A DNA stretch of 64,000 nucleotides, from NCBI GenBank assembly GCA_018436925.1, contig JAHDKI010000001.1:128098-192097 (forward strand), written 5' to 3'. The notes below the pieces were generated by a model. It did no database searches. It had not been told where the DNA came from and saw nothing but the letters and a program-made list of their open reading frames with translations. Position numbers and translations under genes: made by a program. Origin of the DNA: Syntrophaceae bacterium. Lineage in GTDB: Bacteria; Desulfobacterota; Syntrophia; Syntrophales; Smithellaceae. This document shows, piece after piece, positions 42,333 to 55,810 of the stretch; position 1 is the stretch's first letter, and each line of letters begins with the position of its first letter.

Positions 42333-42334
42333 GC

Positions 42335-42688
42335 ATGGAATCGAATTGGCAAGACGAACTGCCTGTGGGGATCACCGTTTGCGACGAGCAGGGCGTCATC
42401 CTTTCTATGAACGACCGGGCCGCGCTGATCTTCAAAAAATCGGGAGGATCCAAGCTCGTCGGCAAAAGCCTGATGGACTGCCATCCGCTAGACGCGCAGG
42501 AAAAAATTCGCAATCTGCTTGAACAAAAAAAGCCCAACGCCTATACGCTTGAAAAAAACGGGCGGACCGTCCTGTTGTATCAGTCTCCCTGGTATGAACA
42601 AGGGGCCTTCAAGGGGTTTGTCGAATTCATCTTTGAGCTTCCAGAGCAGATGAATCGCCTGGCCGAGATCCGCTGGGTGAATCAGTAG
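42335..42688 (+). CDS. stand-alone PAS domain protein
   Basis: ITVCDEQGVILSMN, VGKSLMDCHP, YQSPWY...GFVE. Confidence 0.8.
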   Translation: MESNWQDELPVGITVCDEQGVILSMNDRAALIFKKSGGSKLVGKSLMDCHPLDAQEKIRNLLEQKKPNAYTLEKNGRTVLLYQSPWYEQGAFKGFVEFIFELPEQMNRLAEIRWVNQ

Positions 42689-42694
42689 GCGCCT

Positions 42695-43873
42695 TCATTT
42701 TCCCGCATATTTTCCGTACAACTCGGCGGCGGCCGCAAGCAGCGCTTCGTTGGCCTTTGCGCCTCCGACATTGGCGGCCAGCACCATTGCCAAGTCGCGC
42801 TGCGGGTCGATCCAGATGTGGGCGAGGTTCATTCCGTTGGATCCGCCGTGATAGATCAGCGGGTAGGGCGCCCAGTCCACGCGAAGTTCGCCCCAGCCCA
42901 GCGCGTAGCGGCCCTGCGAAGGCGTGCCCGGGGCCGCGTCCGGGCGCGGCGGCATGGACGCGACGGGCGTTTGCAGTTTTTTGAGGGTTTTGGGTGTTAC
43001 AAGCCTGGGCCCGCGTTTTCCCTGTCCCGCGTTCCAGGAAGCCCATCGGGCAAAATCCAGAATCGACATGTGCGCAGTACCGGCCGGCCCGATAATCGGC
43101 GGATTGTCGCCGCAGGGGCCGGCGAGCATCGCAACAGGTTTACCGTTGATGATCGCATGCCCCAAGGGGGCGTCGATTTTCCCTAGGGAGGATTGGTGCC
43201 CCAGGCCGGCGGTTTTCAGGCCCAGAGGCGCGAATATCCTTTCGACGATCAACTCCTCCCACGTTCGTCCCTCCAGACGTTCGAGGATCGTTCCCGCGAT
43301 GACATAGTTCATATTGGCGTAAACGAAAGTCTCTCCGGGCTTATGCTCCAGGGGCAGCTTCGACCACTGCTGGGTGAGCCAGTAACGCAGCTCGTTGAGA
43401 TTGCCCGTTTCTTTCATGGAATCGAAAAGCAATCGGCCGAAAGCGTCGTTATCCGCAGGCACGCCGCTGGTGTGGGACAGAAGCTGCAAAACCGTGATGG
43501 CGCGGACTTCCGGCGACATGCCCGGTTCCATCTCGGGAAAAATCTGAGCCAGCGTCGAGTCCCAGTCGATTTCGCCTTTTTCGACCTGCATGGCCAAAAG
43601 CAACGCGGTCATGGCTTTCGTATTGGAACCGAGATGAAAACGGTCGTTGAGCGTCACAGGAATCCGATGACCGATCCGGCGTGTGCCGACGGCGCCGGCG
43701 GCGAGAATTTTTCCGTTGTGGGTCACGGCCGCCGCAAGGGCCGGCAAGCCGTTTTGTTCAAGATGTGTTTTCAGCATCGAATCCAGGACGTCCTGGGCGC
43801 GCGCGGGGGAAATCCAACAACACACGAAAATCGTTGCAAGTGCGCATAACAGCGTTAGGACATGTTTTTTCAT
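42695..43873 (-). CDS. exported serine hydrolase (beta-lactamase/AmpC-like family)
   Basis: Signal peptide, FHLGSNTK (SxxK), LLSHTSG, YAN, HGGSNG. Confidence 0.9.
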   Translation of the reverse strand: MKKHVLTLLCALATIFVCCWISPARAQDVLDSMLKTHLEQNGLPALAAAVTHNGKILAAGAVGTRRIGHRIPVTLNDRFHLGSNTKAMTALLLAMQVEKGEIDWDSTLAQIFPEMEPGMSPEVRAITVLQLLSHTSGVPADNDAFGRLLFDSMKETGNLNELRYWLTQQWSKLPLEHKPGETFVYANMNYVIAGTILERLEGRTWEELIVERIFAPLGLKTAGLGHQSSLGKIDAPLGHAIINGKPVAMLAGPCGDNPPIIGPAGTAHMSILDFARWASWNAGQGKRGPRLVTPKTLKKLQTPVASMPPRPDAAPGTPSQGRYALGWGELRVDWAPYPLIYHGGSNGMNLAHIWIDPQRDLAMVLAANVGGAKANEALLAAAAELYGKYAGK

Positions 43874-44148
43874 CGGAAATGAACAACCTCCTGCGTTATT
43901 TGGATGCTATAAACAATCGCGGCCGGAGAACTCATCCGATGCCCGATGGTTGCTGGAATAAGAAGCCTTGAAAAAGATGCTGTTTATATACAGAGCTTTT
44001 CTGCCTAAATCAATCAAATAACCAGCAACGCAAATAAGCCCGGGGCATCCGATTTGCAATTCCGATTCGATGGACGTGGGCTCGCGACGAAAGGAGGCAA
44101 GATGCTTTGCGGCGGTTGACGTAAAGAGAAAAAACACTGTGTCCGCCG

Positions 44149-45393
44149 CTAGCGGTTGTTTTCCATCCAGTTTACCAGCGTCTGCCTGCGGTTGACGAAA
44201 CCTTTCATATGGGGGTCATCTTTGAGGATTTTTCCGAAGTTGGTCTTGTGCCGTTCCAGAACATCGAGCAATCTGCGCGGATAGAAAAGATAGACCTTCA
44301 TCGAATCGGCCGGAAGGGAATATTTGCGGGCAAGATCCTTTCGAGGCAGAAAAATCCGACGCCAGAGGATTTTAGCCTTGTCCCAAGGACTGGAATTCGT
44401 CACGAACTCGGCAAACGGTTGTGTGACCATTCGCGCGAGCTTTCGGTCCGTGAAGATTTGTCCGAGTGCGGACTCGATGATGTTTTCCGGCAGGTCGGCG
44501 GGACGCATCCTGCTTAAGACGTCTTCGGGCACCGATGCATCGAGCAGATCCTTGGCGAAATACAAAGCCAGATACACGCCGCGTTGCCACGCCCATTGAT
44601 TGGCGCGCTCAATCACCGCCTCCCAGTCCAGCGATGACCCATGCCGCTCGAGAACGGAAGCGATGTCGCAAGAGGGCCGCAGGCCGAAGTAAAACTGGTG
44701 CAGGTAAGAGGCATGCAGGCACAGGTGCAAAAGCAGGTCTTCGTTTGACAGCGACAAAGCCCGTGCGCCGGCCACGCTAAACGGCACGGTGCGCGTCCAC
44801 AGCGCCTCCGGGTGGATGCTGTAAGGTTTGTCCGGATTGGCGAGATTCCAGTGCACCTCGACCTTGGCGCAGCCCGATTTTAAAAAACCGGGCAGATGAT
44901 GTCCTTCGGGGCCGTCTTCCGTTTTCCCGGCGATCGCGGTCGCCGGTTGAAAGCCCATGGATTCCAGCATCGACGCCGCCGGATGAAGATGTTCCGGACG
45001 GACCAGCAGGTCCAAATCGTTCATTTCCCGCAGAGCCGGCATCTCATAAACCGCGCAGGCCAGCACGATTCCTTTGAGAAAAACAACCGGAATGCCGCGG
45101 AAGGCCATTTCGGCGGCAAGCAAGCGGGCCTGGGCCGCAAGGTCCAGATTTCGAAGCGCGTTGCTGCGAAAAGCCTTCTCAAAGGACGAAGCGGCTGCTG
45201 CGGGGATCCCGCCCTCAAGCTGCTTTTGCTTGATGCGGTGCCAGGCCAGCGGCGTCACGCGCTGATCGCGGGCGATATCGAGCATTTCAGTCCAGGCTTC
45301 GGCCGAAAGCGCACGGAGTCGTTCGTGTTGAACCGGCGCGTCCTTTTTCAGAATGTCCAGCAGCAGACGTTCGGTTTGTGAGGGATGTTTCAT
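44149..45393 (-). CDS. nucleotidyltransferase family protein (lasso-cluster type)
   Basis: LKGIVLA..VY..PALREMNDLDLLV, VEVHW, LHLCLHA; ATGA overlap with ABC gene. Confidence 0.85.
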   Translation of the reverse strand: MKHPSQTERLLLDILKKDAPVQHERLRALSAEAWTEMLDIARDQRVTPLAWHRIKQKQLEGGIPAAAASSFEKAFRSNALRNLDLAAQARLLAAEMAFRGIPVVFLKGIVLACAVYEMPALREMNDLDLLVRPEHLHPAASMLESMGFQPATAIAGKTEDGPEGHHLPGFLKSGCAKVEVHWNLANPDKPYSIHPEALWTRTVPFSVAGARALSLSNEDLLLHLCLHASYLHQFYFGLRPSCDIASVLERHGSSLDWEAVIERANQWAWQRGVYLALYFAKDLLDASVPEDVLSRMRPADLPENIIESALGQIFTDRKLARMVTQPFAEFVTNSSPWDKAKILWRRIFLPRKDLARKYSLPADSMKVYLFYPRRLLDVLERHKTNFGKILKDDPHMKGFVNRRQTLVNWMENNR

Positions 45394-47252
45394 GCGTTTG
45401 TCCTTGAGCAAGATCCGTCGGTCTTGCCGCCGCTCATCTGACGCTTCCATGACGCGGCGTATCGACCGCCTGCGGCAAGCAGCGCTTCATGGCTGCCGGA
45501 TTCGATGACCCGGCCCTGGTCCAGAACATGAATAATGTCCGCCTGCATCGCGGTGGTGAAGCGGTGCGTGATAATCAGCGACGTGCGGCCCGCGGTCAGT
45601 CTGCGGAATCGAGAAAGCCAGTCCGCCTCCGCCCAGGAATCCATGAAACTCGTCGGTTCATCCAGGAGGATCAGGTCGGCCTGCCGCAAGAACGCTCGCG
45701 CGAGCGCCAGGCGCTGCCATTCGCCGCCGCTTAACTCCGCGCCGCCGAACCACTTGCCCAGAATCGCCTGGTAACCTTCGGGCAGACGCGAAATCGGCGA
45801 ATCCGCCCCGGCATCTTTGGCGGCCTGTTCAACCCGGTTATCGTCCGGCCTGCTTTCAATGTCGCCCAGGGCGATATTGGCGCGGACCGTGTCGGCATAG
45901 CGCACCGGTTCCTGAAAAAGCACCGTAATCCGGCGGCGAAGATCCTCCGGCGAATAGTTTTTCAGATCGGTTCCATCGGCCAGCACAACGCCCGACGCCG
46001 GGTCATAGAAACGGCATAAGAGTTTGATGAGCGTGGTTTTCCCCGCGCCGTTTTCGCCTACCAGCGCCGTGATTTTTCCCGCCTCCACGGTGAGATTGAA
46101 TCCGTTTAACGCAGGCCGCTCATTTCCGGGATAGCAAAAAACAATGTTCCGAAATTCAATGGCTTTTTGCAGGCCGGTCCATGCGGCGGGTTTTTGCGGA
46201 GCATAAATACGGGGGGCCAGCGCCAGAAACTCGAAAAGATTTTCCAGAAACATCGTGTTGCGGTAGATTTCTCCGAAACTGCCCAGAAGCGATCGCATCA
46301 TGCGCTGCCCCTGAAAAAACGCCTGGGCAAACAGGGCCAGGTCGCCCAGAGTGTAAAGGCCCTGCGCGGCCCGAATGCCCATCCAGGAAAGCGCTCCGGC
46401 AAGGCCCGCCAAACCCAGAAGCGCCGCGCCTGCCGAAGCAAACGCCTCATCGCGCGCCAGGCGCACCCGGTCGCGGCGCAGTTTGCGCCGCAGCCCGGTA
46501 AAAAGCGTTCGGAAATGCGCGCCCAGATGAAACAGTCTCATTTCCGCCGCCGCATCGCGCGAGGTCAGCATCATATCGTAGTAATGGGTTTTGCGAATGG
46601 CCGGCGTGTTTTGCACCCGCCAGTGGTGAAAACGCATCGTATGGCGCAAGACGACCAGCAGGGCCGGGATGGTGCTCAGCGCCAGGACCAGTGGGATGGC
46701 CAGACCGAACGTCAAAAGCACGCCTGCCATCGCGATGAGGGTGATCAAACTTTGCGTGAGCGCGCCGACGTTTTCAAGAAGCGCGGCCGGCCGAGACAGC
46801 GCGTCCACCCGCGCCCGGTGAAGCTGGTCATAGTATCCGGGATCGTCATAATAGGACAAGTCCAGACGCATCGCCTGGGCATGAATCAATTCATGGACAT
46901 GATCCTGCACTTTTTCGGCTTGCTCTGTGCGCAGCCATCGACCGACGCCCGCGAGAACTTCCGTGGCGATCAGCACGCCTCCCATAGCCGCGGCGGAGGG
47001 GGCAAGAGTGATCAGATTGCGCGCGCCTGTGCCGGAGGCGATGACGGTTGCGACGCCATCGACCAGGACTTTGGTCAGATAAACCAGCGCCACCGGCAAA
47101 AGTCCCTGAACCATCAGCAGCAAAAGCCAGACGATCGTCAACGCGCCCGCCGCCCGATAGGCCAGCGCGAGCGCTCGCGGCACGTAGGGAAGCTGAGTTC
47201 GAAACCGGACGGCCGCTTTGGCCAACTGTTTAGGAAATGATTTCGAAATCAC
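45390..47252 (-). CDS. ABC exporter (fused permease + ATPase), lasso peptide D protein
   Basis: TM domain, GENGAGKTT, ELSGGEWQRLALAR, LLDEPTS, ITHR. Confidence 0.92.
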   Translation of the reverse strand: MISKSFPKQLAKAAVRFRTQLPYVPRALALAYRAAGALTIVWLLLLMVQGLLPVALVYLTKVLVDGVATVIASGTGARNLITLAPSAAAMGGVLIATEVLAGVGRWLRTEQAEKVQDHVHELIHAQAMRLDLSYYDDPGYYDQLHRARVDALSRPAALLENVGALTQSLITLIAMAGVLLTFGLAIPLVLALSTIPALLVVLRHTMRFHHWRVQNTPAIRKTHYYDMMLTSRDAAAEMRLFHLGAHFRTLFTGLRRKLRRDRVRLARDEAFASAGAALLGLAGLAGALSWMGIRAAQGLYTLGDLALFAQAFFQGQRMMRSLLGSFGEIYRNTMFLENLFEFLALAPRIYAPQKPAAWTGLQKAIEFRNIVFCYPGNERPALNGFNLTVEAGKITALVGENGAGKTTLIKLLCRFYDPASGVVLADGTDLKNYSPEDLRRRITVLFQEPVRYADTVRANIALGDIESRPDDNRVEQAAKDAGADSPISRLPEGYQAILGKWFGGAELSGGEWQRLALARAFLRQADLILLDEPTSFMDSWAEADWLSRFRRLTAGRTSLIITHRFTTAMQADIIHVLDQGRVIESGSHEALLAAGGRYAASWKRQMSGGKTDGSCSRTNA

Positions 47253-47295
47253 AAAAGAAGCCTTTCACTCGCCGGCGTTTGAATAAGCCGTATCT

Positions 47296-47778
47296 TTATG
47301 AGAACGTCGAGACGACGGTATATCGGCTGCGTCCCTGCGCGCCGGTTAGAATTGACGGTCCGGAGCGGACCCAGGCGTGCGCGGCAAGTTTGGGGTGGGA
47401 GGCGTCGTCTTTGGCCACCCCCAGGTAAAGCGTTGACGCAATATGCCGCCGCCCAAGCATCCATTTGGCTGTAACCGCCTGCGGCAGACAGACGCTGCCC
47501 CAGGGCGTGTAACCGGCTGCCGAGCGGACCGCCCCGCCGATGAGCCGAGCTGTTTTTAAGGCGTTCGGGCTGAGCCTCCGGTCCGTTTCTTTCATGTGTT
47601 CGCCCAGCGAGGCGGCAAGCCAGCGAAACGGCAAAACCAACACGGCCAGACGGGCCAGACCAAGAAGAAGAAAAGCCTCGATCAACAAAAGACGTTCCGT
47701 GCGCGTCCGCCTGCGCCATTTCGCGGACCAATCTTTAAGGGTTTGCCGCAATGAAAGTCTGTTTGCTGAAGATGTCAT
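47296..47778 (-). CDS. lasso peptide B2 leader peptidase (transglutaminase-like)
   Basis: TPWGSVCLPQA (catalytic Cys), LYLGV, AHAWV (catalytic His). Confidence 0.92.
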   Translation of the reverse strand: MTSSANRLSLRQTLKDWSAKWRRRTRTERLLLIEAFLLLGLARLAVLVLPFRWLAASLGEHMKETDRRLSPNALKTARLIGGAVRSAAGYTPWGSVCLPQAVTAKWMLGRRHIASTLYLGVAKDDASHPKLAAHAWVRSGPSILTGAQGRSRYTVVSTFS

Positions 47779-48638
47779 TCGTCAAGAACCTCTCCATGGA
47801 CATTGAGGTAACCGAAGCGCTGCATTACCTCCCGGTGATCTTCCACGATCCGACGAACCTGTGCATCGTTGAGTTCTTCGCGCCATGACCCGATTTTCCC
47901 GCTTCGAAAAAACTTCTTTGCCGAGGGGGGCTTTTCAATGAATCCTTCCACATCTTCCTGGGCTTGGAGACGTTGAAATGAACTGTGTTCCAACGCCAGG
48001 AGGATTCCGTCGTCGGAAGGATCCAGGCCGACAGCTCTGCTTGCCGCTGCGAAGGTTTGAAAAGGGTTTTTGTGCATGTCTTCATAGCGCACGACGTGCA
48101 CATCGAACGGGGTCTGATCCACCCAACTTTTTACATGGCTGCTCCACGACAACAACTTTTGGCGCAATTGGTTGTGTAGCCGATCACTTTTTTCGCAAGA
48201 GGTGAATCCGTTATCAGCCATCCGGGCAATGGTTGTGTCATAATCCCAGCCGCTGTGGTGAGCAAAGGAGACGGCCACATCCAGAGGATTGCGGATGAAA
48301 TACAACGCGCCGGCGGTTGCGTCACGCGGAATCAGGGGGCGGTTGTTGTCTAAATAAAGATAGGCGTCGTGAATCTTCATAAAAACAGGCCCGCTTACTT
48401 TTTGCGCCAGATGGATGTAGAGCTCAGGCCGCAAGCGGTCAATCTCATCGGCTGTCAAGTCCGAAGCCTCGAAGCCGATTTCATCGTCAAAAAGGAGCCT
48501 TGAGCTTGCGATTCGTGTTTTTCCCAGACGATTGATGCTTGCCGGTTCATCGGAATCTCCAAGCAGATTGCCCAGAAAAACACGAAACCAGGTGTTGCCG
48601 GATTTGGGATATGAAGCGAGCCAGATGATGCCGCTCAT
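47775..48638 (-). CDS. PAPS-dependent sulfotransferase (lasso cluster)
   Basis: WLASYPKSGNTW, KIH, IRNPLDVAVS, VRYEDM, FFRSGKIGSW; ATGA-coupled to both neighbours. Confidence 0.92.
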   Translation of the reverse strand: MSGIIWLASYPKSGNTWFRVFLGNLLGDSDEPASINRLGKTRIASSRLLFDDEIGFEASDLTADEIDRLRPELYIHLAQKVSGPVFMKIHDAYLYLDNNRPLIPRDATAGALYFIRNPLDVAVSFAHHSGWDYDTTIARMADNGFTSCEKSDRLHNQLRQKLLSWSSHVKSWVDQTPFDVHVVRYEDMHKNPFQTFAAASRAVGLDPSDDGILLALEHSSFQRLQAQEDVEGFIEKPPSAKKFFRSGKIGSWREELNDAQVRRIVEDHREVMQRFGYLNVHGEVLDE

Positions 48639-49543
48639 GCGTTTACCCGCTCGAGAATTTTATCTGCAAGCTCATTGATTTGAAAACCCCGCTTCGGTCG
48701 CGAGACTTTGACAATCGGAAGATTTGCCGCGACAGCGGCACATTGACGGAAATGATCCGCGGTTTTGCCCAACCCTTTTAGAAATCCCATGCGATAGGTA
48801 TTGGAGATAAGTTGATTAATTTTGTCCATGCCGGTGAGCTCCCACATTTCGATTCGCTCCGTATTGACCGCATCCAACACAAAAAGAGCCTGAAGCGCTA
48901 CCGGAGTGGCAACATTTTCCTGAATCGGTATGAAAAATTTTTCGAGATTTTTGATCCATCGAACGCTTTGCAGGTCGTCTTTGTTTTTTCCCAGTTTATC
49001 GAGTGCATCAGCCCAGAGCTTTAAGCGCGAAAAGCCTGGAATGAGAGAAGATTTTTTACCGGCAGGATCGATTGCGCAGACATCATCGGCGAGAAAAAGG
49101 CAACCCCTGTCGTGAAGCGCCGCGGACAGCGTCGATTTTCCGATGCCGGAGGGCCCGGCAAACGCAATCGCACCCTTGTTGACAGCTACCGCTCCCGCGT
49201 GCAGAACGAGGATGCCGCGCTGATGAAGAAGCGCCCCCATCGCTGAGCCCATCAGAAAAATCAAAATGCGTTCAAGGCTTGACTGAGGGTGAGGAGTAAC
49301 AAGAATTCTGCGCCCCTTCCTAATCCAGTACCGCGCGACGCCGTCCACGCAAAGCAGCAATTCGTCCGTCGAAGCTTGATAGCGCACGCCGGTCACTTGA
49401 GGGTGGTCGAGTTTTTCCGGCGTCTGGCCGTACTCAATGACGATGTCAGGATTTGCCGCTTCGGCGGGATCGCTGAGCATCGGCGCCGGCAGCGGCAGCT
49501 CGGAGAGAATTTTTAAACCGAAAACGTAATATGCCTGATTCAT
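48635..49543 (-). CDS. HPr kinase-like lasso peptide kinase
   Basis: LVLHAGAV, GPSGIGKST (P-loop), LADDV, LKLWAD. Confidence 0.88.
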   Translation of the reverse strand: MNQAYYVFGLKILSELPLPAPMLSDPAEAANPDIVIEYGQTPEKLDHPQVTGVRYQASTDELLLCVDGVARYWIRKGRRILVTPHPQSSLERILIFLMGSAMGALLHQRGILVLHAGAVAVNKGAIAFAGPSGIGKSTLSAALHDRGCLFLADDVCAIDPAGKKSSLIPGFSRLKLWADALDKLGKNKDDLQSVRWIKNLEKFFIPIQENVATPVALQALFVLDAVNTERIEMWELTGMDKINQLISNTYRMGFLKGLGKTADHFRQCAAVAANLPIVKVSRPKRGFQINELADKILERVNA

Positions 49544-49572
49544 GATCGGGTCCGGATAATATATTTGTGCGG

Positions 49573-49601
49573 TTTATATCGGAAAAGGATGCGGCTGTCA
49601 A
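49573..49601 (-). promoter_or_regulatory. putative sigma-70 promoter for kinase-sulfotransferase-B2-ABC-nucleotidyltransferase operon
   Basis: TTGACA-17 bp-TATAAA on minus strand. Confidence 0.65.
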
Positions 49602-49968
49602 AAAGGCAAACACGAATGCTCTTTTTAAGAATTTCCTTTTCCTGGAATCTTTATCAACATGGCTCATCCAGAGCGGTGAACTGCTTCACCAAGGCGTCTT
49701 TAAAGCGCACTCTATAAATATGTTTATGAATACAACGTATTAAAGTAAGAGTGGCTCTTTTTCCAAGCGTGAATATTCCAACAGGTTGTCTTTACGAACG
49801 AAAACAGTTCAAGCAATGGACGGAAATCTCCAGGTTTGACGTGAGATTTAACATGCCGGAGAACATCGCGACAGCTCGTTTGGGAAATCAAATAGTGCCC
49901 GATCCGGATGATGCAAATGGCGAGAAGGGGTGCGCTGTAAGGCATAGATTATATGGATCATTTTCCGG

Positions 49969-49985
49969 TGTCGGAATTATTTACA
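49969..49985. promoter_or_regulatory. candidate enhancer box 1 (PEP-CTERM/PrsR-type)
   Basis: TGTCGGAATTATTTACA, TGT-N11-ACA. Confidence 0.6.
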
Positions 49986-50055
49986 GATTCGCCTTTTGTC
50001 ATACACTCGAATACATTGATTTTTTTCCTGAAAGGCCCTTATTGCCTCTTGCGCC

Positions 50056-50072
50056 TGTCGTATAATTTTACA
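50056..50072. promoter_or_regulatory. candidate enhancer box 2 (PEP-CTERM/PrsR-type)
   Basis: TGTCGTATAATTTTACA, same TGTCG-N6-TTTACA pattern. Confidence 0.65.
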
Positions 50073-50156
50073 ATTGCGGTCAGCAACCCTGCTTCAGGCA
50101 AATCGATTGGTTATTTTAATCAATATATTCAGCAATGTGGAGATATTTATTGCGGG

Positions 50157-50172
50157 TGGCCCGCATATTGCA
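50157..50172 (+). promoter_or_regulatory. sigma-54 (-24/-12) promoter
   Basis: TGGCCCGCATATTGCA matches TGGCACG-N4-TTGC with exact spacing. Confidence 0.8.
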
Positions 50173-50242
50173 AGTTTGTTAAGGCAAAAGGAATAATTTT
50201 AGAGAAAACCTTAAACAGGCTTTAAATAGTGGGGAGGAAAAA

Positions 50243-50854
50243 ATGAAAAAAATATTATTAATCGGCGCTATGATTCTTTCGTTGATCGGTCTTGTCGGAT
50301 ACGCAGGCGCAACGACAATCGATTTTGAGGAATTTGCTGCGGGAACAACCGTTAGCGGCCCCGGCATATTCGATGATGTCGTATTTACCGCCGGATCTGT
50401 AAGTATTATAGCTGTGGGTGCGGTGCCCGGACCTGAGTTGTCAGGTAGCAGAACAGCTGCTTCATTCACCTTTTCTAATCCCGATCCTTTTAAGGCGGAG
50501 TTTCTAATTGCCGGCGTAAATTCAGTGTCCGTGGCCATGGGCGATTATAACCAAGATCAGGACAATTTATTTCTCATAGCCTATGACAGTTTAGGTTTTG
50601 TGCTGGATGAAGTGTATTACCAATTGTTAGGTGAGGTTTATGGCGGACCGACTCTGACGGTCAACGCATCTAATATTGCATATGTTCTATTTGGCAGCAA
50701 CAGTCCTGTCGATGCAAATTATGATTATCCCAACAGTATCTATTTTGACAATTTCACATACAATACAACCCCCGTACCTGAACCAACCGCTTTGATTCTT
50801 TTAGGTTTGGGGCTTCTTGGACTGGTCAGCTTACGAAGACGTTTAATAAAGTAA
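50243..50854 (+). CDS. PEP-CTERM sorting domain surface protein
   Basis: Signal peptide, TTIDFE start of mature region, C-terminal VPEP-TALILLGLGLLGLVSL-RRRLIK. Confidence 0.92.
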   Translation: MKKILLIGAMILSLIGLVGYAGATTIDFEEFAAGTTVSGPGIFDDVVFTAGSVSIIAVGAVPGPELSGSRTAASFTFSNPDPFKAEFLIAGVNSVSVAMGDYNQDQDNLFLIAYDSLGFVLDEVYYQLLGEVYGGPTLTVNASNIAYVLFGSNSPVDANYDYPNSIYFDNFTYNTTPVPEPTALILLGLGLLGLVSLRRRLIK

Positions 50855-50874
50855 GTTTAGAAAATCAATAATAC

Positions 50875-50919
50875 AAAAAAAGGCAGAGCAAACTTAAAAT
50901 AAGGCGCTCTGCCTTTTTT
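50875..50919. terminator. bidirectional intrinsic terminator
   Basis: AAAAAAA-GGCAGAGC...GCTCTGCC-TTTTTT between convergent PEP-CTERM and precursor genes. Confidence 0.8.
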
Positions 50920-50999
50920 GCATGGTGGCGATCTGTATTCTAAAAAACTACCAATAGGTCTTTGGTAAAAAACCTATATTTGAAAGCACTCACAACTCC

Positions 51000-51170
51000 T
51001 TAAGAAGCCCATCCCCCACCGTCCTCTAATGATGGAACCCCCCCGGAGCTTGTCTCGCTGCAAGCTATCTCTTCCAGCTTCGGAGCCTTCCAGTTTCTTT
51101 TAGGTTTCTCGGGAAGTTCATTTTCTAGGGGACTGGCGGATTTAATATTACCCGAAGATTGTTCTGTCAT
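51000..51170 (-). CDS. lasso peptide precursor (56 aa, not in ORF track)
   Basis: Hand translation MTEQSSGNIKSASPLENELPEKPKRNWKAPKLEEIACSETS-SGGVPSLEDGGGWAS*; GGAGG RBS; WxxPxL leader motif, Thr at -2, acidic residues at core positions 8/9. Confidence 0.9.
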   Translation of the reverse strand: MTEQSSGNIKSASPLENELPEKPKRNWKAPKLEEIACSETSSGGVPSLEDGGGWAS

Positions 51171-51205
51171 TTTCCTGCCTCCAAAAATACAATTGATTTA
51201 CTTGA

Positions 51206-51234
51206 TACATAGGCAAAAAGTATAGAGGTGTCAA
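51206..51234 (-). promoter_or_regulatory. putative sigma-70 promoter dedicated to the precursor gene
   Basis: TTGACA-17 bp-TATGTA immediately after the cyclase stop codon. Confidence 0.55.
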
Positions 51235-51235
51235 T

Positions 51236-53200
51236 TTATTTTTTGGGGGAGGCGCGAAGTTGGTCATCGGATAGCGCTTGATCCGAGCAAAAGGAAGCTG
51301 TCATCAGAAAATATCCGGTGTTCATGGCACGTAAAAAAGCACTCGTATCTGCAGGGTGTGCTGATGGGGCTGCTTGAAATGACGCCCAGATATGTCTCAT
51401 ATCCTTGATATTCAAGTATTTTAATATGGAAGAAGCGGTTTCTAATTGCTCCAATGCCTCTTCCGCTTCTTTTTTATGCGCAATAAGTCTTTTAAAAATG
51501 TCTGCCGATTGCTGACCACGACTTGTATTCCAGCATATCTCATCGGGAAGAATACCCTCCATTGCTTTACGAATCAGCATACGCTGGCCGCCTTGAAGCA
51601 TCATTTGATCATGGGGAAGACCGATACAAAATTCCAATAAGCGGATATCTGCCGTTGGATCAAGGATTGCCATATTGAAATGAGATGCCAATGTATTCCA
51701 GAAAGGTCCCACATATGTGCCGTTTCGTATCATAGTGGCGTGCCTTTCCGTTAAGGGATCCATTGGTTTTGATTGGACATTAAACCTTGAGTTTTCCATT
51801 AAGCCCAAACGTTTGATGAAATCTCTTTGAGGATAAGAATAATTAAGCGTTTTTCCTGGGGAGAAATATTGTCGGTATTGCGATAAAAAAGGCAAAAAAA
51901 GAGGTCGTAATATTTGACTTTTTATTGCTCTGAACCACGAAAAATTTCGTTGTTTACGCCAATTAGACAGTGCCCTTAAAGTTTCTAACAAGTGATTTTG
52001 AGTAAGAAGATAGAATATCCGGTCAGATCCGCCGCTCCATGAGATTCCGCCATTACCTAATTGTCCTGTAAGCAGAATACCGATATTGCGGCGTTTAGCA
52101 TTTTCAAGCATGGAGAGAATCCAAAACATATTGGCGGCGGCATGTTGAGGCATGTGGAATATTCTCAGGCTCGCTTTTATGGCTTCGATCGGTGTGATAT
52201 CGTCGCCGGGAATTGCAACATGTTCGACATTTTTATATTTTTCTGCAAGTTCATGAGCAAGAGGCCATTCATTTGCAATTTTTCCTGGAAAGTATTCTTC
52301 TGCTGGATAGACGGGAACTGAGGTAAAAGCGAAAATGCGGTCTCCCTTTTTCTGAAGTGCTTCGGCAGCCAATGCCGTTACAGCGCTTGAATCTAGGCCT
52401 GCGCTGAGTGTCGAACCGACAGGCCGGATGGAATTGAGGCGCACTCGGACAGCTCGACGAAAATGATCAAGGAATCCTTCCAGGTATGCTTCGTCCGACT
52501 TGAAGAATGTTGGTGACACGTTGTCCATCCGCCAGAAGTTATCGATATGCTTGTCGGAGTTCTGAAGAACGACAGCATGAGCTGCTGGAAGTAAACGGAC
52601 ACCTCGCCAAAAAGTTCTCGAATAATCTTTACCCATAAGATCATAGCCAAGATTTTGCGCGAGGTGAAGCTCATCAAGCGCCCGTGGAACGTCGAGCTGC
52701 GCGAGAACCGCTTGAATGCTTGACGCGAAGACGAGAAGCGGCGGTTTGAAGTAATAATAAAGTCCTGTGTTGCCCAGGTGATCACGGGCCAGAATAAGCT
52801 TTCGGTCGAGTTCATGCCAGGCGGCAAAAGACCAGTCGCCGTAAAGCTTTTTACAGGCGTCCCGCCCCCATTTTTTGTATGCCAGATATGCCAGGCGGCC
52901 GTCGGACGTCACCGGCCTTTCGGGATGCGGGATAGAGAAATAATCGCAAAGCTCATCGCGGTTGTCCAGGCGCGCCGCGGCGGTGAACGTGATCTTTTCT
53001 TCTTCATCCCGGAAGGGCATTTTTTCAAAGCGGGATTCGTGCGTGACGATCAATAAGGCATGGCCGAGCGCCGCGCTTCCTGCCGTGATCGTATGAAGTC
53101 CGTCCGGTCCCCATCCGGCCATCTGCTCCGCCATCGGCTGCAGATCATCACGCGAAACCGGTCGTCCGTCTAGATTTGCAAAGCCGAAAATCCCGCTCAA
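51236..53200 (-). CDS. lasso cyclase (asparagine synthetase-like C protein)
   Basis: TTG start after AGGAGG; MSGIFG lacks the N-terminal Cys of AsnB; ARLDNRDEL, ARDHLG, LSAGLDSS, LLTGQLGNG, RDP-like LDPTADIRLLEFC. Confidence 0.9.
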   Translation of the reverse strand: MSGIFGFANLDGRPVSRDDLQPMAEQMAGWGPDGLHTITAGSAALGHALLIVTHESRFEKMPFRDEEEKITFTAAARLDNRDELCDYFSIPHPERPVTSDGRLAYLAYKKWGRDACKKLYGDWSFAAWHELDRKLILARDHLGNTGLYYYFKPPLLVFASSIQAVLAQLDVPRALDELHLAQNLGYDLMGKDYSRTFWRGVRLLPAAHAVVLQNSDKHIDNFWRMDNVSPTFFKSDEAYLEGFLDHFRRAVRVRLNSIRPVGSTLSAGLDSSAVTALAAEALQKKGDRIFAFTSVPVYPAEEYFPGKIANEWPLAHELAEKYKNVEHVAIPGDDITPIEAIKASLRIFHMPQHAAANMFWILSMLENAKRRNIGILLTGQLGNGGISWSGGSDRIFYLLTQNHLLETLRALSNWRKQRNFSWFRAIKSQILRPLFLPFLSQYRQYFSPGKTLNYSYPQRDFIKRLGLMENSRFNVQSKPMDPLTERHATMIRNGTYVGPFWNTLASHFNMAILDPTADIRLLEFCIGLPHDQMMLQGGQRMLIRKAMEGILPDEICWNTSRGQQSADIFKRLIAHKKEAEEALEQLETASSILKYLNIKDMRHIWASFQAAPSAHPADTSAFLRAMNTGYFLMTASFCSDQALSDDQLRASPKK

Positions 53201-53253
53201 GTTCTGCCTCCTGAAAACCCCGTTTGAAAACCAGCCTTGGGGCTGCCTATCCT

Positions 53254-53532
53254 TTATTCCACGAAAATCAGATTGCGTTTTTCCAGATCGTTCAAAAAAG
53301 GCAGGACGTCGGCCGCGCATTGTTCGGCAGACACGTCATATTCGGCGCAAAGCTCCCGGCAGAGCTCCTCCACCGAAATTTTCGCATCGAGCTTTTTCCA
53401 GACTGCCGCCGCGATGGAATTAAAACCGTAATACTTGCCCGCCTCGACATCGAGCATGACCAGTTCGTCATCCACCGGCGCCTCAACCGGCGTTTTTTTG
53501 CGAAGAATAGAATTTTGCATGGATACGGCCAT
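53254..53532 (-). CDS. PqqD-family RiPP recognition element (lasso B1)
   Basis: VDDELVMLDVEAGKYYGFNSIAAAVW...EYDVSAEQCAADV..FLNDL. Confidence 0.92.
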   Translation of the reverse strand: MAVSMQNSILRKKTPVEAPVDDELVMLDVEAGKYYGFNSIAAAVWKKLDAKISVEELCRELCAEYDVSAEQCAADVLPFLNDLEKRNLIFVE

Positions 53533-53717
53533 CGTGATGACTCCATTTGTTTATAAAATTCGCCCCGATAAAGGTGCGTTGGGATATCTTCACCCGCTTG
53601 CGGATGACGTTTCAGACAAAGCATAAAAAGTGGCAAAGATCAAAGAATAGATCCATCTCAACTTGCACCCTATAACCCCGAATTTTGCACCATCCTGGAA
53701 TATGAAACCCTCAGGCT

Positions 53718-54215
53718 TTATCGGGTGTGAAATTCGTGAATCAGGATGGCCTCGCGAAGATACGATTGCGGATACTCTCTGAAGTCTTTCTCGCCAAAGC
53801 CCAGTTTTTCAAACCAGGCTTTGAGGTCAAGGTCTTCGACCATCACGCCGGCGTGGACGCGCTTTGCGCCAAGGCGCTGCGCTTCAGTAAGGCCATGGCG
53901 TACGAGCATTGCGCCAAATCCCTGCCGTCTGAATTCGTCCGATACGGCCAGCTGCGCTAAAGCGCAAACCTCGCTGCTGACATGCTCAAGCGCAACGGCG
54001 CCCGCCGGTGTGTCATTGTGTTCGAGAAGATAATAAACCACGCCGCGATTCAGATCCCGAAAAATCCAGTCGGGCCGGCAGTTGGACGGATGGCGGAGGG
54101 CATTTCGACAGTCAAGCCCGAAACGTTCGGCTTGATCCGCAAACGCTTCTGAAATCAGGCCGGACAGGGTTTCAGCGTCCCGGCTGTCGCATTTCCGAAT
54201 GTCGCCTTCCTTCAC
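53718..54215 (-). CDS. GNAT family N-acetyltransferase
   Basis: LAVSDEFRRQGFGAMLV acetyl-CoA motif, WFEKLGF. Confidence 0.85.
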   Translation of the reverse strand: MKEGDIRKCDSRDAETLSGLISEAFADQAERFGLDCRNALRHPSNCRPDWIFRDLNRGVVYYLLEHNDTPAGAVALEHVSSEVCALAQLAVSDEFRRQGFGAMLVRHGLTEAQRLGAKRVHAGVMVEDLDLKAWFEKLGFGEKDFREYPQSYLREAILIHEFHTR

Positions 54216-54359
54216 GGGGTGCGTCCCTCCTGTTTTTGGTGACGCATTTTAGCACAGGTGTGGAGTTTGTGAAATATCTTGAAGGAAAGCCGATTGTGTG
54301 TCAAATCTCGTGCCGTACCTTCGAATGCTTTCGCCAATGCTTTGCGGGGGATGCCCGAT

Positions 54360-55613
54360 ATGACTTTTTTGGACAGCGCCGCCTTGTCTTCCTATATCGT
54401 CCTTTTTGCGTTTTATGCCTTCCTGGGATGGCTTTTGGAGGTCGCCTACCGATCTTATAAAAATAAACGATTCATCAATGCAGGGTTTCTTTTCGGTCCG
54501 TTTCTTCCCATCTATGCTGCGGGGGCATTTTTTGTTCTTGCACTGGATCATCTTTTGCAGATCTGGCCCTGGTTTCTTCGGTTTCTTGTGTTTGCCGCGG
54601 CTGTGACCGCTCTGGAGTATCTGGTCGGCTTTTTTTCGGAGAAGCTCTTCAAACTGAAGCTTTGGGACTATTCGGAAAACCGCTTCAATATTCAGGGCCG
54701 CGTATGTCTGCGATTTTCTCTGTTATGGGCCGCGCTGGTATTGATTTTCGTCTTGGTTATCCACCCGGCGGTTCTCGGATGGACGGACGGATTGGATGAA
54801 GGCTTTTTGAAAGTCGGCGCTGTTTTGTTTGCCGTTTATATTGCGACCGACGCCACTTTCTCTGTCTTGTCGCTTGCGGCCTTTCGCCGGAAGGTTGCCT
54901 ACCTCTACACCGAGTATGTCAACCTCAGCAATGTTGAAGTAGAACGTCTGCTGGGGTCGATCCGTCGGCTTCGCGAGGCCTTCCCCGATCTGAACAAGTA
55001 CATTCGCAACAGCATTGATAAAAGTATCAAGGACCGCATTCAATCCCTGCTCAAACCGATTCAGAAAAAGATTATTCTGGAAATGCAAGGCAGAAAGCCG
55101 TTTGAGAAAGAATATTACGATCTGATCGGGGACATCTGCGAACATGAAGAATTTCTGAAATTAAAAGAGTATTTTCATCATAATTCGTCGATCTATCACC
55201 ACGTCCATGATGTGGCGTACCTGGCCTATCGGATCAGCAAATATCTGAAGCTTGATTACCGGTCGGCCACGCGCGGTGCGCTGCTGCACGATTTTTTCCT
55301 CTACGACTGGCGCAACCATGATGTGCCGGATCTGCCCAGAGAAAAGTTTCACGGCCTGGAACATCCGAAAATCGCCGTGGCCAATGCGAAAAGGCATTTT
55401 TCTCTAAACGATATTGAAGAGGATATTATCCGCAAGCACATGTGGCCGCTCACGCTTGTGCCGCCGAAATACAAAGAGTCGTTCATCGTCTCTTTTGCCG
55501 ACAAGTATCTGTCGTCAAAAGAATTTCTGAATGAATATAAAAAGAGGATTCATTTGCAGGCCCGCAAAATCACGGGTCGGGATCAAAAGAAACATCCTGA
55601 AAACAGCTGTTGA
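54360..55613 (+). CDS. putative ABC-permease-like membrane domain fused to HD-domain phosphohydrolase
   Basis: YAFLGWLLEV, GFLFGPFLPIY, WDYS..FNIQGRVCL; C-terminal RGALLHDFFLYDW, HPKIA, KHMWPLT, ADK. Confidence 0.8.
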   Translation: MTFLDSAALSSYIVLFAFYAFLGWLLEVAYRSYKNKRFINAGFLFGPFLPIYAAGAFFVLALDHLLQIWPWFLRFLVFAAAVTALEYLVGFFSEKLFKLKLWDYSENRFNIQGRVCLRFSLLWAALVLIFVLVIHPAVLGWTDGLDEGFLKVGAVLFAVYIATDATFSVLSLAAFRRKVAYLYTEYVNLSNVEVERLLGSIRRLREAFPDLNKYIRNSIDKSIKDRIQSLLKPIQKKIILEMQGRKPFEKEYYDLIGDICEHEEFLKLKEYFHHNSSIYHHVHDVAYLAYRISKYLKLDYRSATRGALLHDFFLYDWRNHDVPDLPREKFHGLEHPKIAVANAKRHFSLNDIEEDIIRKHMWPLTLVPPKYKESFIVSFADKYLSSKEFLNEYKKRIHLQARKITGRDQKKHPENSC

Positions 55614-55768
55614 CAGGTTGCTGGGTCTTGCGCTGCGGCGGGAGAAGCGAACAAAAACCATACGATGGGCCGTAAGGCCCGAAAGCGAGAGTTTTCCTTG
55701 TTCCGAAAAGGTCCCCTCCGGGGATGAAAGTAAAAGTTTTCCTGCGCTTTCTGCGACAGAATAAAAAT

Positions 55769-55792
55769 GAGGATGACCGGCCGGTCATCCTC
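55769..55792. terminator. perfect 24-bp palindrome, likely terminator for dodecin gene
   Basis: GAGGATGACCGGCCGGTCATCCTC preceded by AAAAAT (T-tract on minus strand). Confidence 0.65.
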
Positions 55793-55810
55793 TGAGATGA
55801 TGCCAGATCC

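What the first reader, a model, noticed from the sequence alone, without database searches (positions are those of the whole stretch)
44149..53532. Lasso cluster with three tailoring enzymes: kinase, sulfotransferase, nucleotidyltransferase
Seen: B1, C, A, then kinase-sulfotransferase-B2 (ATGA-coupled) and ABC-nucleotidyltransferase (ATGA-coupled), all on the minus strand. Known: paeninodin-type HPr-like kinases phosphorylate the C-terminal Ser of the precursor, and the pseudomycoidin nucleotidyltransferase is linked to glycosylation of that phospho-Ser. Seen: the core ends in Ser and has no Tyr. Inference: the sulfotransferase cannot make the usual sulfotyrosine, so it may act on Ser6/Ser15, on the phospho/glyco cap, or on another acceptor. 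That would be a multiply capped, possibly sulfated lasso peptide from a probable anaerobe. The bulky C-terminal cap might also help hold a short Gly-rich tail in the ring.
Basis: partly seen in the sequence, partly recalled or inferred. Interest (0 to 1): 0.88.

Follow-up and report, generated by a model that had tools for sequence, protein, structure and literature searches.

The report
Lasso cluster with kinase-sulfotransferase module
This is a real gene cluster for a knotted "lasso" peptide that also encodes a kinase, a sulfotransferase and a nucleotidyltransferase; the gene combination has been noted in print before, but the kinase and sulfotransferase prove to be a tightly coupled pair whose chemistry nobody has yet worked out.

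Summary
On the minus strand of 44149-53532 lie B1 (PqqD), C (cyclase), precursor A, an HPr-kinase-like K, a PF00685 sulfotransferase (ST), B2, an ABC exporter and a PF14907 nucleotidyltransferase. K/ST and ST/B2 overlap by ATGA. A PEP-CTERM gene on the plus strand splits the cluster in two.

The precursor is paeninodin-like: W at -15, T at -2, a 15-residue core ending in Ser, and no Tyr.

- The genome encodes CysD and CysN/CysC, so it can make PAPS.
- In 80 homologous ST loci, K lies directly upstream in 63, and a lasso core gene is present in 72.

- 107 of the 120 listed long ST homologues are K/ST fusions, in both orders.
- A K+ST complex is predicted at 0.86, against 0.01 for the best control.
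- ST is found next to K, while K often occurs without ST.

So ST most likely acts with K on the C-terminal Ser region. The exact acceptor is unresolved.

The gene association was already published (2014, 2016), so this is a new member of a known but chemically uncharacterised cluster type.

The parts
53254..53532 (-). B1, PqqD-like RiPP recognition element (92 aa)
   Evidence: PF05402 E 1.3e-22, 80.3 bits. NF033536 lasso PqqD chaperone 71 bits, below its cut-off of 80.
51236..53200 (-). C, asparagine-synthetase-like lasso macrolactam cyclase. The ORF runs up to 53320; the likely start is TTG 53200.
   Evidence: PF00733, PF13537 and PF13522. NF033535 E 2.2e-102, starting at ORF residue 41. AGGAGG lies 7 nt before TTG 53200.
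51000..51170 (-). A, precursor peptide (56 aa). The leader has WKAPKL with W at -15 and T at -2. The predicted core is SGGVPSLEDGGGWAS, with ring closure from Ser1 to Glu8 or Asp9.
   Evidence: Translation. GGAGG lies 8 nt before the ATG. The motif agrees with the [Y/W]xxPx[L/V/I/F/A] motif and the W-15 of paeninodin-like leaders described in PMC13381572. It is the only plausible candidate found by the regex scan of 42001-56000.
50883..50914 (.). Hairpin flanked by an A-tract and a U-tract, between A (-) and the PEP-CTERM gene (+). It is a likely bidirectional terminator.
   Evidence: RNA fold -25.2 kcal/mol, z -5.2, with 0 of 200 shuffles folding as well.
50243..50854 (+). PEP-CTERM protein gene (203 aa) in a 41% GC stretch. 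It interrupts the cluster and is not part of the lasso system.
   Evidence: PF07589 29 bits. GC 0.414 for 50001-52000. No homologue in the 80 related loci.
48635..49543 (-). K, HPr-kinase-like lasso peptide kinase (302 aa)
   Evidence: Weak PF07475 and TIGR04352 matches. In an alignment of 31 sequences, P-loop residues S132, G133, G135, K136 and S137 are invariant, and H115, D153 and D154 are at least 90% conserved. This matches the His-Lys-Asp-Asp motif quoted in PMC9266682.
47775..48638 (-). ST, PAPS-type sulfotransferase (287 aa), overlapping K and B2 by ATGA
   Evidence: PF00685 83.2 bits. K12, H90, R116 and S124 are invariant across 37 sequences. The nearest solved relatives are Teg14, Teg12 and StaL. 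AF2 model pLDDT 94.5.
47296..47778 (-). B2, transglutaminase-like leader peptidase (160 aa)
   Evidence: NF033537 108 bits, cut-off 33. PF13471 95.9 bits.
45390..47252 (-). D, ABC exporter with fused permease and ATPase (620 aa)
   Evidence: PF00005 plus PF00664, and MsbA-like NCBIfam matches.
44149..45393 (-). N, PF14907 nucleotidyltransferase. The ORF runs up to 45450; the likely start is ATG 45393, overlapping the D stop as ATGA.
   Evidence: PF14907 E 6.1e-64, 216 bits. Sequence read.

Best explanation
This is a class II, split-B, paeninodin-type lasso peptide gene cluster in a DsrAB-bearing, probably anaerobic bacterium. It consists of two units, B1-C-A and K-ST-B2-D-N.

Proposed steps (all inferred, none shown):
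1. B1 binds the WxxPxL leader.
2. K phosphorylates the C-terminal Ser15 of the still-linear precursor.
3. ST, docked on K as a heterodimer, transfers sulfate from PAPS to the same C-terminal region. PAPS comes from the genome's CysD and CysN/CysC. The acceptor is either the new phosphate, giving a phosphosulfate, or a neighbouring hydroxyl.
4. N may add hexose to the phosphate, as PsmN does.
5. B2 cuts after Thr-Ser, C closes the Ser1-Glu8/Asp9 ring, and D exports the capped lasso.

What is shown by computation: the gene content, the intact catalytic motifs, the PAPS genes, the K-ST coupling (adjacency, fusions, predicted complex), and the fact that ST occurs with K but not the reverse.
For: Gene families.

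Precursor features.

PAPS supply:
- An APS-kinase domain lies in a 716-aa open frame.
- CysD scores 441.7 bits for TIGR02039, and a bifunctional CysN/CysC scores 912.4 bits for NF004035.

ST looks catalytically competent:
- K12, H90, R116 and S124 are invariant in 37 sequences.
- The fold matches Teg12 with PAP and teicoplanin aglycone (Foldseek E 1.3e-12, TM 0.65).

K-ST coupling:
- K lies directly upstream of ST on the same strand in 63 of 80 loci, in ST-then-K order in 2, and elsewhere in the locus in 10. It is not found in 5, and in 3 of those the ST lies within 811 nt of a contig end.
- With profile searches, K is present in 42 of the 43 loci that have full 10-kb flanks.
- Of the 120 listed ST homologues of at least 504 aa, 90 are K-ST fusions and 17 are ST-K fusions.
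- The predicted complex scores ipSAE 0.86 (runs 0.85, 0.90, 0.86) against 0.01 for the best of 3 controls. The three runs agree in at least 91% of their contacts, and partner pLDDT is at least 87. That mark was reached by 58 of 80 solved complexes and by 2 of 110 mismatched pairs; these counts hold only roughly here, because my own alignments were used.

Dependency:
- In 401 genomes of the phylum, K-like genes occur in 22 genomes.
- ST matches at E <= 1e-10 occur in 6 genomes. Two of these (G206, G333) are weak, at 29-34% identity. In the other four (G000, G087, G110, G255) the five full-length ST matches each abut a K match.
- G110 also has two partial ST matches with no K match beside them.
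- The most similar cluster (L094: B2 64%, N 43% identity) has K followed directly by B2, with no ST.

Tyr is not the common acceptor: 12 of 36 filtered precursor candidates lack Tyr, while 30 of 36 end in Ser.
Against: - No chemistry was measured, and no sulfated lasso peptide turned up in the searchable literature.
- The K match to HPr-kinase models is weak.
- 24 of 36 related precursor candidates do carry Tyr near the C-terminus. Tyr sulfation therefore remains possible in relatives, and ST may be less tied to Ser than I propose.
- One subgroup of loci (for example L039, L062, L066, L072, L076) has cores that do not end in Ser.
- Conservation of the predicted K interface is only slightly higher in ST-linked kinases (0.57 against 0.51 for the rest of the protein) than in K-only kinases (0.43 against 0.47). 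That comparison is confounded by relatedness.
- The cluster is split by a foreign-looking gene. Contigs from RNA libraries covered only N and D, so expression of the whole set is not shown.
- The complex score is the model's own confidence, not a measurement.
Confidence: 0.55

Rival explanations
1. ST decorates an independent side-chain hydroxyl: Ser6 here, Tyr, Ser or Thr in relatives. It uses K only as a docking or recognition partner. The product would carry phospho-Ser15 plus a separate O-sulfate.
For: - The closest solved relatives (Teg12, Teg14, StaL) sulfate hydroxyls of peptide antibiotics.
- 24 of 36 related precursor candidates have Tyr, often 2-6 residues from the C-terminus.
[quoted passage not shown] K could therefore present the tail to ST.
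Against: - No side-chain position other than the C-terminal Ser is shared by the candidate cores.
- 12 of 36 candidates lack Tyr, the window's among them.
- Ser6 lies inside the future ring and far from the kinase's site.
Confidence: 0.25
2. ST sulfates the hexose that the N enzyme installs on phospho-Ser, giving a sulfated phosphoglycosyl cap.
For: - All three genes are present here.
- PsmN-dependent hexose sits on the phosphate in pseudomycoidin.
- The genome has several other PF00685 genes next to sugar-nucleotide genes, so sugar sulfation occurs in this organism's repertoire.
Against: - N is found in only 26 of 43 full-flank ST loci, against 42 of 43 for K.
- The fusions are with K (107 of 120), never with N.
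- The predicted complex is with K.
Confidence: 0.08
3. ST does not modify the peptide at all. It could be a non-catalytic partner that stabilises or regulates K. It could use sulfation as leaving-group activation, as the SULT-fold retinol dehydratase and LGS1 do. Or it could act on another cellular acceptor.
For: - SULT-fold enzymes that use sulfate as a leaving group appear among the fold matches: retinol dehydratase and LGS1.
- No sulfated lasso peptide was found in the literature searches.
- K alone is reported as poorly soluble in one system (PadeK, passage), so a stabilising partner is conceivable.
Against: - The PAPS-binding and catalytic residues are invariant across phyla, which argues against a purely structural role.
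- ST occurs almost only inside lasso or K contexts.
Confidence: 0.12
4. The cluster is a decaying or silent remnant. The PEP-CTERM insertion separated the precursor and cyclase from the tailoring and export genes, and no product is made.
For: - A low-GC plus-strand gene lies between A and K.
- K-like genes were not found in the 13 same-genus, same-family and same-order genomes of the sample, which fits recent acquisition.
Against: - All eight ORFs are intact, with ribosome-binding sites and translational coupling.
- The catalytic residues are kept.
- A terminator after the precursor gene is usual for RiPP operons (my own knowledge, not tested).
Confidence: 0.05

Closest known systems
Paeninodin-type phosphorylated lasso peptides (padeCAKB1B2D; ThcoK, SyanK)
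   Same: - Split B1/B2, an Asn-synthetase-like C, an ABC exporter and an HPr-kinase-like K with the His-Lys-Asp-Asp residues.
- A precursor with W at -15, T at -2 and a C-terminal Ser.
   Different: - The gene order is B1-C-A ... K-ST-B2-D-N, with a foreign gene in the middle.
- The host is a DsrAB-bearing organism, neither Bacillota nor Sphingomonas.
- An ST gene sits between K and B2.
- The core is short (15 residues) and Gly-rich.
Pseudomycoidin cluster (psmCAKB1B2ND) with PsmN
   Same: - A kinase plus an 'uncharacterised NTP transferase' next to the exporter.
- The idea that a bulky cap on the C-terminal Ser locks the thread.
   Different: - N lies after D, not between B2 and D.
- Homology of this N to PsmN itself was not tested; only membership of PF14907 was.
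- The psm cluster, as described in the passages read, has no sulfotransferase.
Glycopeptide antibiotic sulfotransferases Teg12, Teg14 and StaL
   Same: - They are the best sequence matches (E 8.7e-10 to 1.3e-6) and the best fold match (Teg12 TM 0.65).
- They share the N-terminal 5'-PSB motif almost letter for letter.
- They act on constrained peptide natural products using PAPS.
   Different: - Identity is only about 20-22%.
- Residues 25-102 of this ST do not align with them.
- Part of that stretch, residues 47-76, is the predicted K-docking surface.
- Their acceptors are phenolic hydroxyls, which this core lacks.
Linear polyphosphorylated peptides (LPP; LppK, LppB, LppS, LppD, LppN)
   Same: They use the same accessory set of HprK-like kinase, NTP transferase, MsbA-like exporter and discrete RRE, and often sit beside lasso clusters.
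   Different: LPP clusters have a signal-peptidase-type leader peptidase, no cyclase, and a YxxP leader. The window has B2, C and a WxxP leader. No sulfotransferase is mentioned in that paper's main text (0 occurrences); its supplementary co-occurrence tables were not available to me.
RaxST/RaxX sulfatyrotide
   Same: It is the only RiPP class defined by sulfation that came up in my reading (passage).
   Different: It sulfates Tyr. RaxST was not compared here.

Membership tests
Lasso peptide biosynthetic gene cluster (split-B type) | Asn-synthetase-like macrolactam cyclase (C) | tested here: met
   PF00733 87.5 bits, above its cut-off of 21. NF033535 E 2.2e-102, but 343.8 bits against a curated cut-off of 525.
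Lasso peptide biosynthetic gene cluster (split-B type) | Transglutaminase-like leader peptidase B2 and a PqqD-like RRE B1 | tested here: met
   NF033537 108.2 bits, cut-off 33. PF05402 80.3 bits, cut-off 23.4.
Lasso peptide biosynthetic gene cluster (split-B type) | Precursor with a [Y/W]xxPxL leader motif, Thr at -2, a small first core residue and Asp or Glu at core position 7-9 | tested here: met
   WKAPKL, T-2, Ser1, Glu8 and Asp9, read. The motif definition is quoted in PMC13381572.
Lasso peptide biosynthetic gene cluster (split-B type) | The product is a threaded macrolactam | not testable with these tools
   Needs isolation followed by MS/NMR or protease and heat tests.
Paeninodin-like (kinase-tailored) lasso subfamily | [quoted passage not shown] | tested here: met
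   K136 is invariant; H115, D153 and D154 are at least 90% conserved in 31 sequences. The motif is quoted from PMC9266682. That these columns are the published residues is my own assignment.
Paeninodin-like (kinase-tailored) lasso subfamily | C-terminal Ser in the core and Trp in the leader motif | tested here: met
   The core ends ...GGGWAS and W is at -15. Literature basis.
Paeninodin-like (kinase-tailored) lasso subfamily | [quoted passage not shown] | not testable with these tools
   Needs an enzyme assay or heterologous expression.
PAPS-dependent sulfotransferase (Sulfotransfer_1, PF00685) | 5'-phosphosulfate-binding loop, 3'-phosphate-binding motif and catalytic Lys-x-His | tested here: met
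   YPKSGNTW (K12), RNPLDVAVS (R116, S124) and K88-x-H90 are all invariant in 37 sequences. The assignment of roles to these motifs is recalled from the SULT literature, not computed here.
PAPS-dependent sulfotransferase (Sulfotransfer_1, PF00685) | Sulfotransferase fold | tested here: met
   AF2 model pLDDT 94.5. In Foldseek, 109 PDB chains score E <= 0.001, all of the listed ones being SULT-fold proteins; the top match is Teg12.
PAPS-dependent sulfotransferase (Sulfotransfer_1, PF00685) | The donor PAPS is available in the cell | tested here: met
   CysD and bifunctional CysN/CysC lie on contig C5. A Sat-type ATP sulfurylase (PF01747) was not found.
PAPS-dependent sulfotransferase (Sulfotransfer_1, PF00685) | Sulfate transfer to a defined acceptor | not testable with these tools
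   The acceptor is unknown.
PsmN-like lasso nucleotidyltransferase | Uncharacterised NTP-transferase domain encoded beside B2 or D in a kinase-type lasso cluster | tested here: met
   PF14907 216 bits. It is ATGA-coupled to D.
PsmN-like lasso nucleotidyltransferase | Sequence homology to PsmN itself and its catalytic Asp pair | not tested
   No PsmN sequence was obtained from any tool. That PsmN belongs to PF14907 is my assumption.

The most novel reading that the evidence does not exclude
The kinase and the sulfotransferase act as one two-headed enzyme on the C-terminal serine. K makes phospho-Ser, and ST then transfers sulfate from PAPS onto that phosphate. The result would be a serine O-phosphosulfate (mixed anhydride) cap, chemistry known so far only in APS and PAPS and never on a peptide. 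This module would then be widespread: more than 7600 ST homologues, spread across many phyla.
Probability: 0.2. Interest if true: 0.85.

Novelty: new member of a known kind. Interest (0 to 1): 0.55.

Why it matters
Lasso peptides are stable scaffolds of interest for antibiotics and peptide engineering. Their known tailoring steps include phosphorylation, phosphoglycosylation, methylation, acetylation, citrullination and hydroxylation.

Sulfation has not been described for them in anything I could search. Yet the ST family found here is very large: 7641 of the 8000 scored candidates matched. It is spread over many phyla.

The ST is almost always wedded to the lasso kinase, often fused to it, and is predicted to bind it. 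That turns a ten-year-old annotation remark ("role unclear") into a concrete and cheap experiment. Natural K-ST fusion proteins give a single polypeptide to assay with ATP, PAPS and a short peptide ending in Ser.

If the product is a phosphosulfate or an O-sulfoserine, it would be a new post-translational modification for RiPPs.

Tried and rejected
- Tyr as the common acceptor: rejected. 12 of 36 filtered precursor candidates lack Tyr. Three of the 36 look spurious (L004 at 988, L073 at 4855, L081 at 17294) but were left in the counts.
- Flanking genes as part of the cluster: the GNAT (53718-54215), the beta-lactamase-like gene (42695-43873), the HD-domain gene (54279-55613) and the PEP-CTERM gene have no tblastn match (E <= 1e-4) in any of the 80 related loci. 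I therefore set the borders at B1 and N.
- K-only versus K-ST precursors: both kinds end in Ser, and I saw no feature that separates them.
- Interface conservation, K with ST versus K alone: only a small difference, confounded by relatedness. I give it no weight.
- Promoter and terminator scan: terminator-like sites were no more frequent than in shuffles (16 against a mean of 15.2). The scan missed the long-loop hairpin that I then folded separately.
- Sequencing runs:
  - Contigs from RNA libraries at 95% or better cover N, D and the outer flanks only. These were X18 and X19 of one study and X20 of another.
  - The DNA run X1 covers K to B1 only.
  - Contigs cannot show transcription, and a part without cover proves nothing, so I draw no conclusion about expression or strain structure.
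  - The run labels (bioreactor, digester, sludge, wastewater, sediment, soil) belong to runs with word shares of 0.21-0.46. Only X1 of these was laid, so habitat is not claimed.
- Papers not held: Zhu et al. 2016 JBC, the RODEO paper and Zhu et al. 2016 FEBS Lett. What they say about sulfotransferases I know only through the 2021 review.
The co-occurrence tables of PMC13381572 may list sulfotransferases, and I could not see them.

That no sulfated lasso peptide or K-ST study is in print rests on searches of the held library only. Subscription journals are largely absent from it.

Full report
OBSERVATION

The region 44149-53532 carries eight minus-strand genes:
- B1 (PqqD, 53254-53532)
- C (Asn-synthetase-like cyclase, ORF 51236-53320)
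- the 56-aa precursor A (51000-51170)
- an HPr-kinase-like K (48635-49543)
- a Sulfotransfer_1 protein, ST (47775-48638)
- B2 (47296-47778)
- an ABC exporter D (45390-47252)
- an NTP_transf_5 protein N (44149-45450)

Pfam and NCBIfam support all of them. Three matches are weaker than the rest. K scores below cut-off for PF07475 (22.4 bits) and reaches E 6.5e-10 for TIGR04352. C and B1 fall below the curated NCBIfam "exception" cut-offs, although both are well above the Pfam ones.

The overlaps K/ST and ST/B2 are ATGA. The D stop overlaps an in-frame ATG at 45393 of the N ORF, so N probably starts there. C probably starts at TTG 53200, behind AGGAGG, where the lasso-cyclase profile begins.

The cluster is thus two units: B1-C-A and K-ST-B2-D-N.

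THE PRECURSOR

The precursor has a GGAGG 8 nt before its ATG. It reads ...NWKAPKLEEIACSETS / SGGVPSLEDGGGWAS. W is at -15 and T at -2. Core residue 1 is Ser, Glu8 and Asp9 are the ring-closure candidates, and the C-terminal residue is Ser. There is no Tyr anywhere.

The [Y/W]xxPx[L/V/I/F/A] motif, and the near-invariant Trp (W-15 in PbaA) of paeninodin-like leaders, are described in PMC13381572 (sections 6 and 9 read). So the precursor is of the paeninodin kind.

K keeps the P-loop. It also keeps H115, K136, D153 and D154. I equate these with the His-Lys-Asp-Asp motif quoted in PMC9266682 (passage).

(a) PAPS supply.
- The genome (3.52 Mb, 100% complete by marker count) has an APS-kinase domain in a 716-aa frame.
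- The neighbouring ORFs are CysD (TIGR02039, 441.7 bits) and bifunctional CysN/CysC (NF004035, 912.4 bits).
- They sit beside sugar-nucleotide genes and near five further PF00685 genes.
- A Sat-type sulfurylase was not found.

(b) Co-occurrence.
- The ST has a very large family: 7641 of 8000 scored candidates at E <= 0.001, with the top hits at 59-88% identity and nearly all of 278-290 aa.
- A scan of species-representative genomes gave 575 relatives. The best 80 loci come from Bacteroidota, Chloroflexota, Acidobacteriota, Desulfobacterota, Cyanobacteria, Negativicutes, Proteobacteria and others, judging by record titles.
- In these 80 loci K lies directly upstream on the same strand in 63, directly downstream in 2, and elsewhere in the locus in 10. 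It is unfound in 5, and in 3 of those the ST is within 811 nt of a contig end.
- After two profile rounds, at least one lasso core gene (B1, B2 or C) is present in 72 of 80 loci.
- Among the 43 loci with full 10-kb flanks the counts are K 42, B1 37, C 36, B2 31 and N 26.
- These 80 are the best-scoring loci, not a random sample.

1. Fusions. A search for longer homologues found 158 proteins of at least 504 aa. Of the 120 listed, 90 are K-ST fusions and 17 are ST-K fusions. One is fused to an Asn-synthetase-like C, and 12 are other architectures such as ST-GNAT and DUF6065-ST.

2. Predicted complex. K and ST are predicted to bind, with ipSAE 0.86 (runs 0.85, 0.90, 0.86) against 0.01 for the best of three controls. 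The runs agree in at least 91% of contacts, and partner pLDDT is at least 87. This mark was reached by 58 of 80 solved complexes and by 2 of 110 mismatched pairs, counts that hold only roughly because my own alignments were used. The ST side of the interface is residues 47-76 plus loops 150-156 and 232-238. The stretch 47-76 is highly conserved in the family (R47, G55, R70, P71 and Y74), and it lies within the part that does not align to Teg14 or Teg12. The K side includes 131-133 at the start of the P-loop, and 197-202 with the invariant K202. I know of no solved complex of these two families, so the pass is unlikely to come from memory. It remains a model score.

3. Dependency. In 401 genomes of the phylum, K-like genes occur in 22. 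ST matches at E <= 1e-10 occur in 6. Two of those (G206, G333) are weak, at 29-34% identity. In the other four genomes (G000, G087, G110, G255) the five full-length ST matches each abut a K match, once within a single 687-aa frame. G110 also has two partial ST matches with no K match beside them. The cluster most like the window's (L094: B2 64%, N 43%, B1 41%, K 38%) has K followed directly by B2, with no ST. So full-length ST is found beside K, and K can do without ST.

THE SULFOTRANSFERASE ITSELF

- K12 in YPKSGNTW, K88-x-H90, and R116 and S124 in RNPLDVAVS are invariant in 37 sequences from many phyla. The roles of these motifs are recalled from the SULT literature.
- The AF2 model is confident (pLDDT 94.5).
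- Its best fold match is Teg12 bound to PAP and teicoplanin aglycone (E 1.3e-12, TM 0.65), followed by cytosolic SULTs and StaL.
- The best sequence matches in the PDB are Teg14, Teg12 and StaL. The nearest characterised enzymes are therefore sulfotransferases that decorate constrained peptide antibiotics.
- No NCBIfam model matches it.

THE ACCEPTOR

- A strict filter for precursors in the 80 loci gave 36 candidates in 29 loci, of which 3 look spurious. Thirty end in Ser, 24 contain Tyr and 12 do not.
- A looser scan also shows a subgroup whose cores end in other residues but have Ser or Thr within the last five.
- Tyr is thus common but not shared. The only shared feature is the hydroxyl residue at or near the C-terminus, which is the kinase's site.
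- N is missing from 17 of 43 full-flank loci and is never the fusion partner. A sugar is therefore an unlikely general acceptor.
- Taking the K-ST coupling and the dependency of ST on K together, I favour ST acting on the kinase's substrate region. The acceptor would be either the phosphate (giving a phosphosulfate) or a neighbouring hydroxyl.
- This step is inferred and nothing here shows it. K-only and K-ST precursors show no distinguishing feature.

THE ORGANISM

DsrA is present (569 bits, cut-off 392.85), with a DsrB-like neighbour. Heme-copper oxidase was not found. K-like genes were not found in the 13 same-genus, same-family and same-order genomes of the sample. The cluster is therefore patchily distributed and was probably acquired.

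LITERATURE

- Letzel et al. [quoted passage not shown]
- A 2021 review (PMC8498205, passages read) attributes to Zhu et al. 2016 the observation of a putative sulfotransferase and a nucleotidyltransferase in kinase-type clusters.
- PsmN adds one or two hexoses to phospho-Ser, and a cap-as-lock idea is proposed in the same paper (PMC6993621, passages).
- A 2022 review of unusual lasso modifications has no word beginning with "sulf".
- Eight searches found no sulfated lasso peptide and no study of a K-ST pair in the held library.
- The two Zhu 2016 papers and the RODEO paper are not held, and supplements are closed.

VERDICT

The cluster type is known in print, but its sulfotransferase step is uncharacterised, so this is a new member of a known kind.

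The added value is the evidence that K and ST form a conserved, often fused and probably physically associated module. That makes the open chemistry directly testable.

Confidence:
- Cluster identity: about 0.95.
- K-ST functional coupling: about 0.85.
- ST modifying the C-terminal Ser region: about 0.55.
- Phosphosulfate specifically: about 0.2.

Noticed in passing
window 50243-50854 (+) and 49544-51000: A PEP-CTERM protein gene sits in a 41% GC stretch, inserted between the precursor gene and the kinase gene of the lasso cluster. It has no counterpart in the 80 related loci.
   Followed up: partly
window about 6472-7038 (-) (G000:C17:134569-135135): A second PF00685 sulfotransferase gene lies in the same window, unrelated to the lasso cluster.
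   Followed up: no
G000 contig C5, about 22-84 kb (L002, L089-L093): CysD and bifunctional CysN/CysC lie beside a Pst-like ABC transporter, GDP-mannose and UDP-GlcNAc dehydratases, and PF00685 matches at five places on the same contig. This looks like a locus for sulfated polysaccharide or glycolipid.
   Followed up: partly
G000 contig C15:121992-124158: DsrA and a DsrB-like gene are present, yet no Sat-type ATP sulfurylase (PF01747) and no COX1 were found in a genome scored 100% complete. This is an odd combination for a sulfate reducer.
   Followed up: no
P0130, P0131, P0225 and relatives: The same ST family also occurs fused to an Asn-synthetase-like lasso cyclase (P0130), to a GNAT acetyltransferase (P0131) and to DUF6065 (P0225).
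   Followed up: partly
L031:8962-14703: An Anaerolineales locus has six tandem precursor genes. All the cores start with SG and end in Ser, and several are Cys-rich.
   Followed up: no
L111 (G255:C28) and G110:C1: L111 has two tandem K genes ahead of ST. G110 carries several K loci, two of them with ST, one of these as a single 687-aa frame.
   Followed up: no
L094 (G074:C52:8000-25000): This is the closest relative of the window's cluster (B2 64%, N 43% identity), but it has K followed directly by B2 with no ST. It is a natural ST-minus comparator.
   Followed up: partly
L039, L062, L066, L071, L072, L076: This subgroup of K-ST lasso loci has cores of the type xGxGSGADG... that do not end in Ser. 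They have Ser or Thr within the last five residues.
   Followed up: no
window 43800-54300 in runs X1, X18, X19, X20: Contigs from RNA libraries of two studies cover N, D and the outer flanks, but not ST to C. One DNA run covers K to B1, but not B2 to N. This could reflect mosaic strains, or simply fragmentary assembly.
   Followed up: partly
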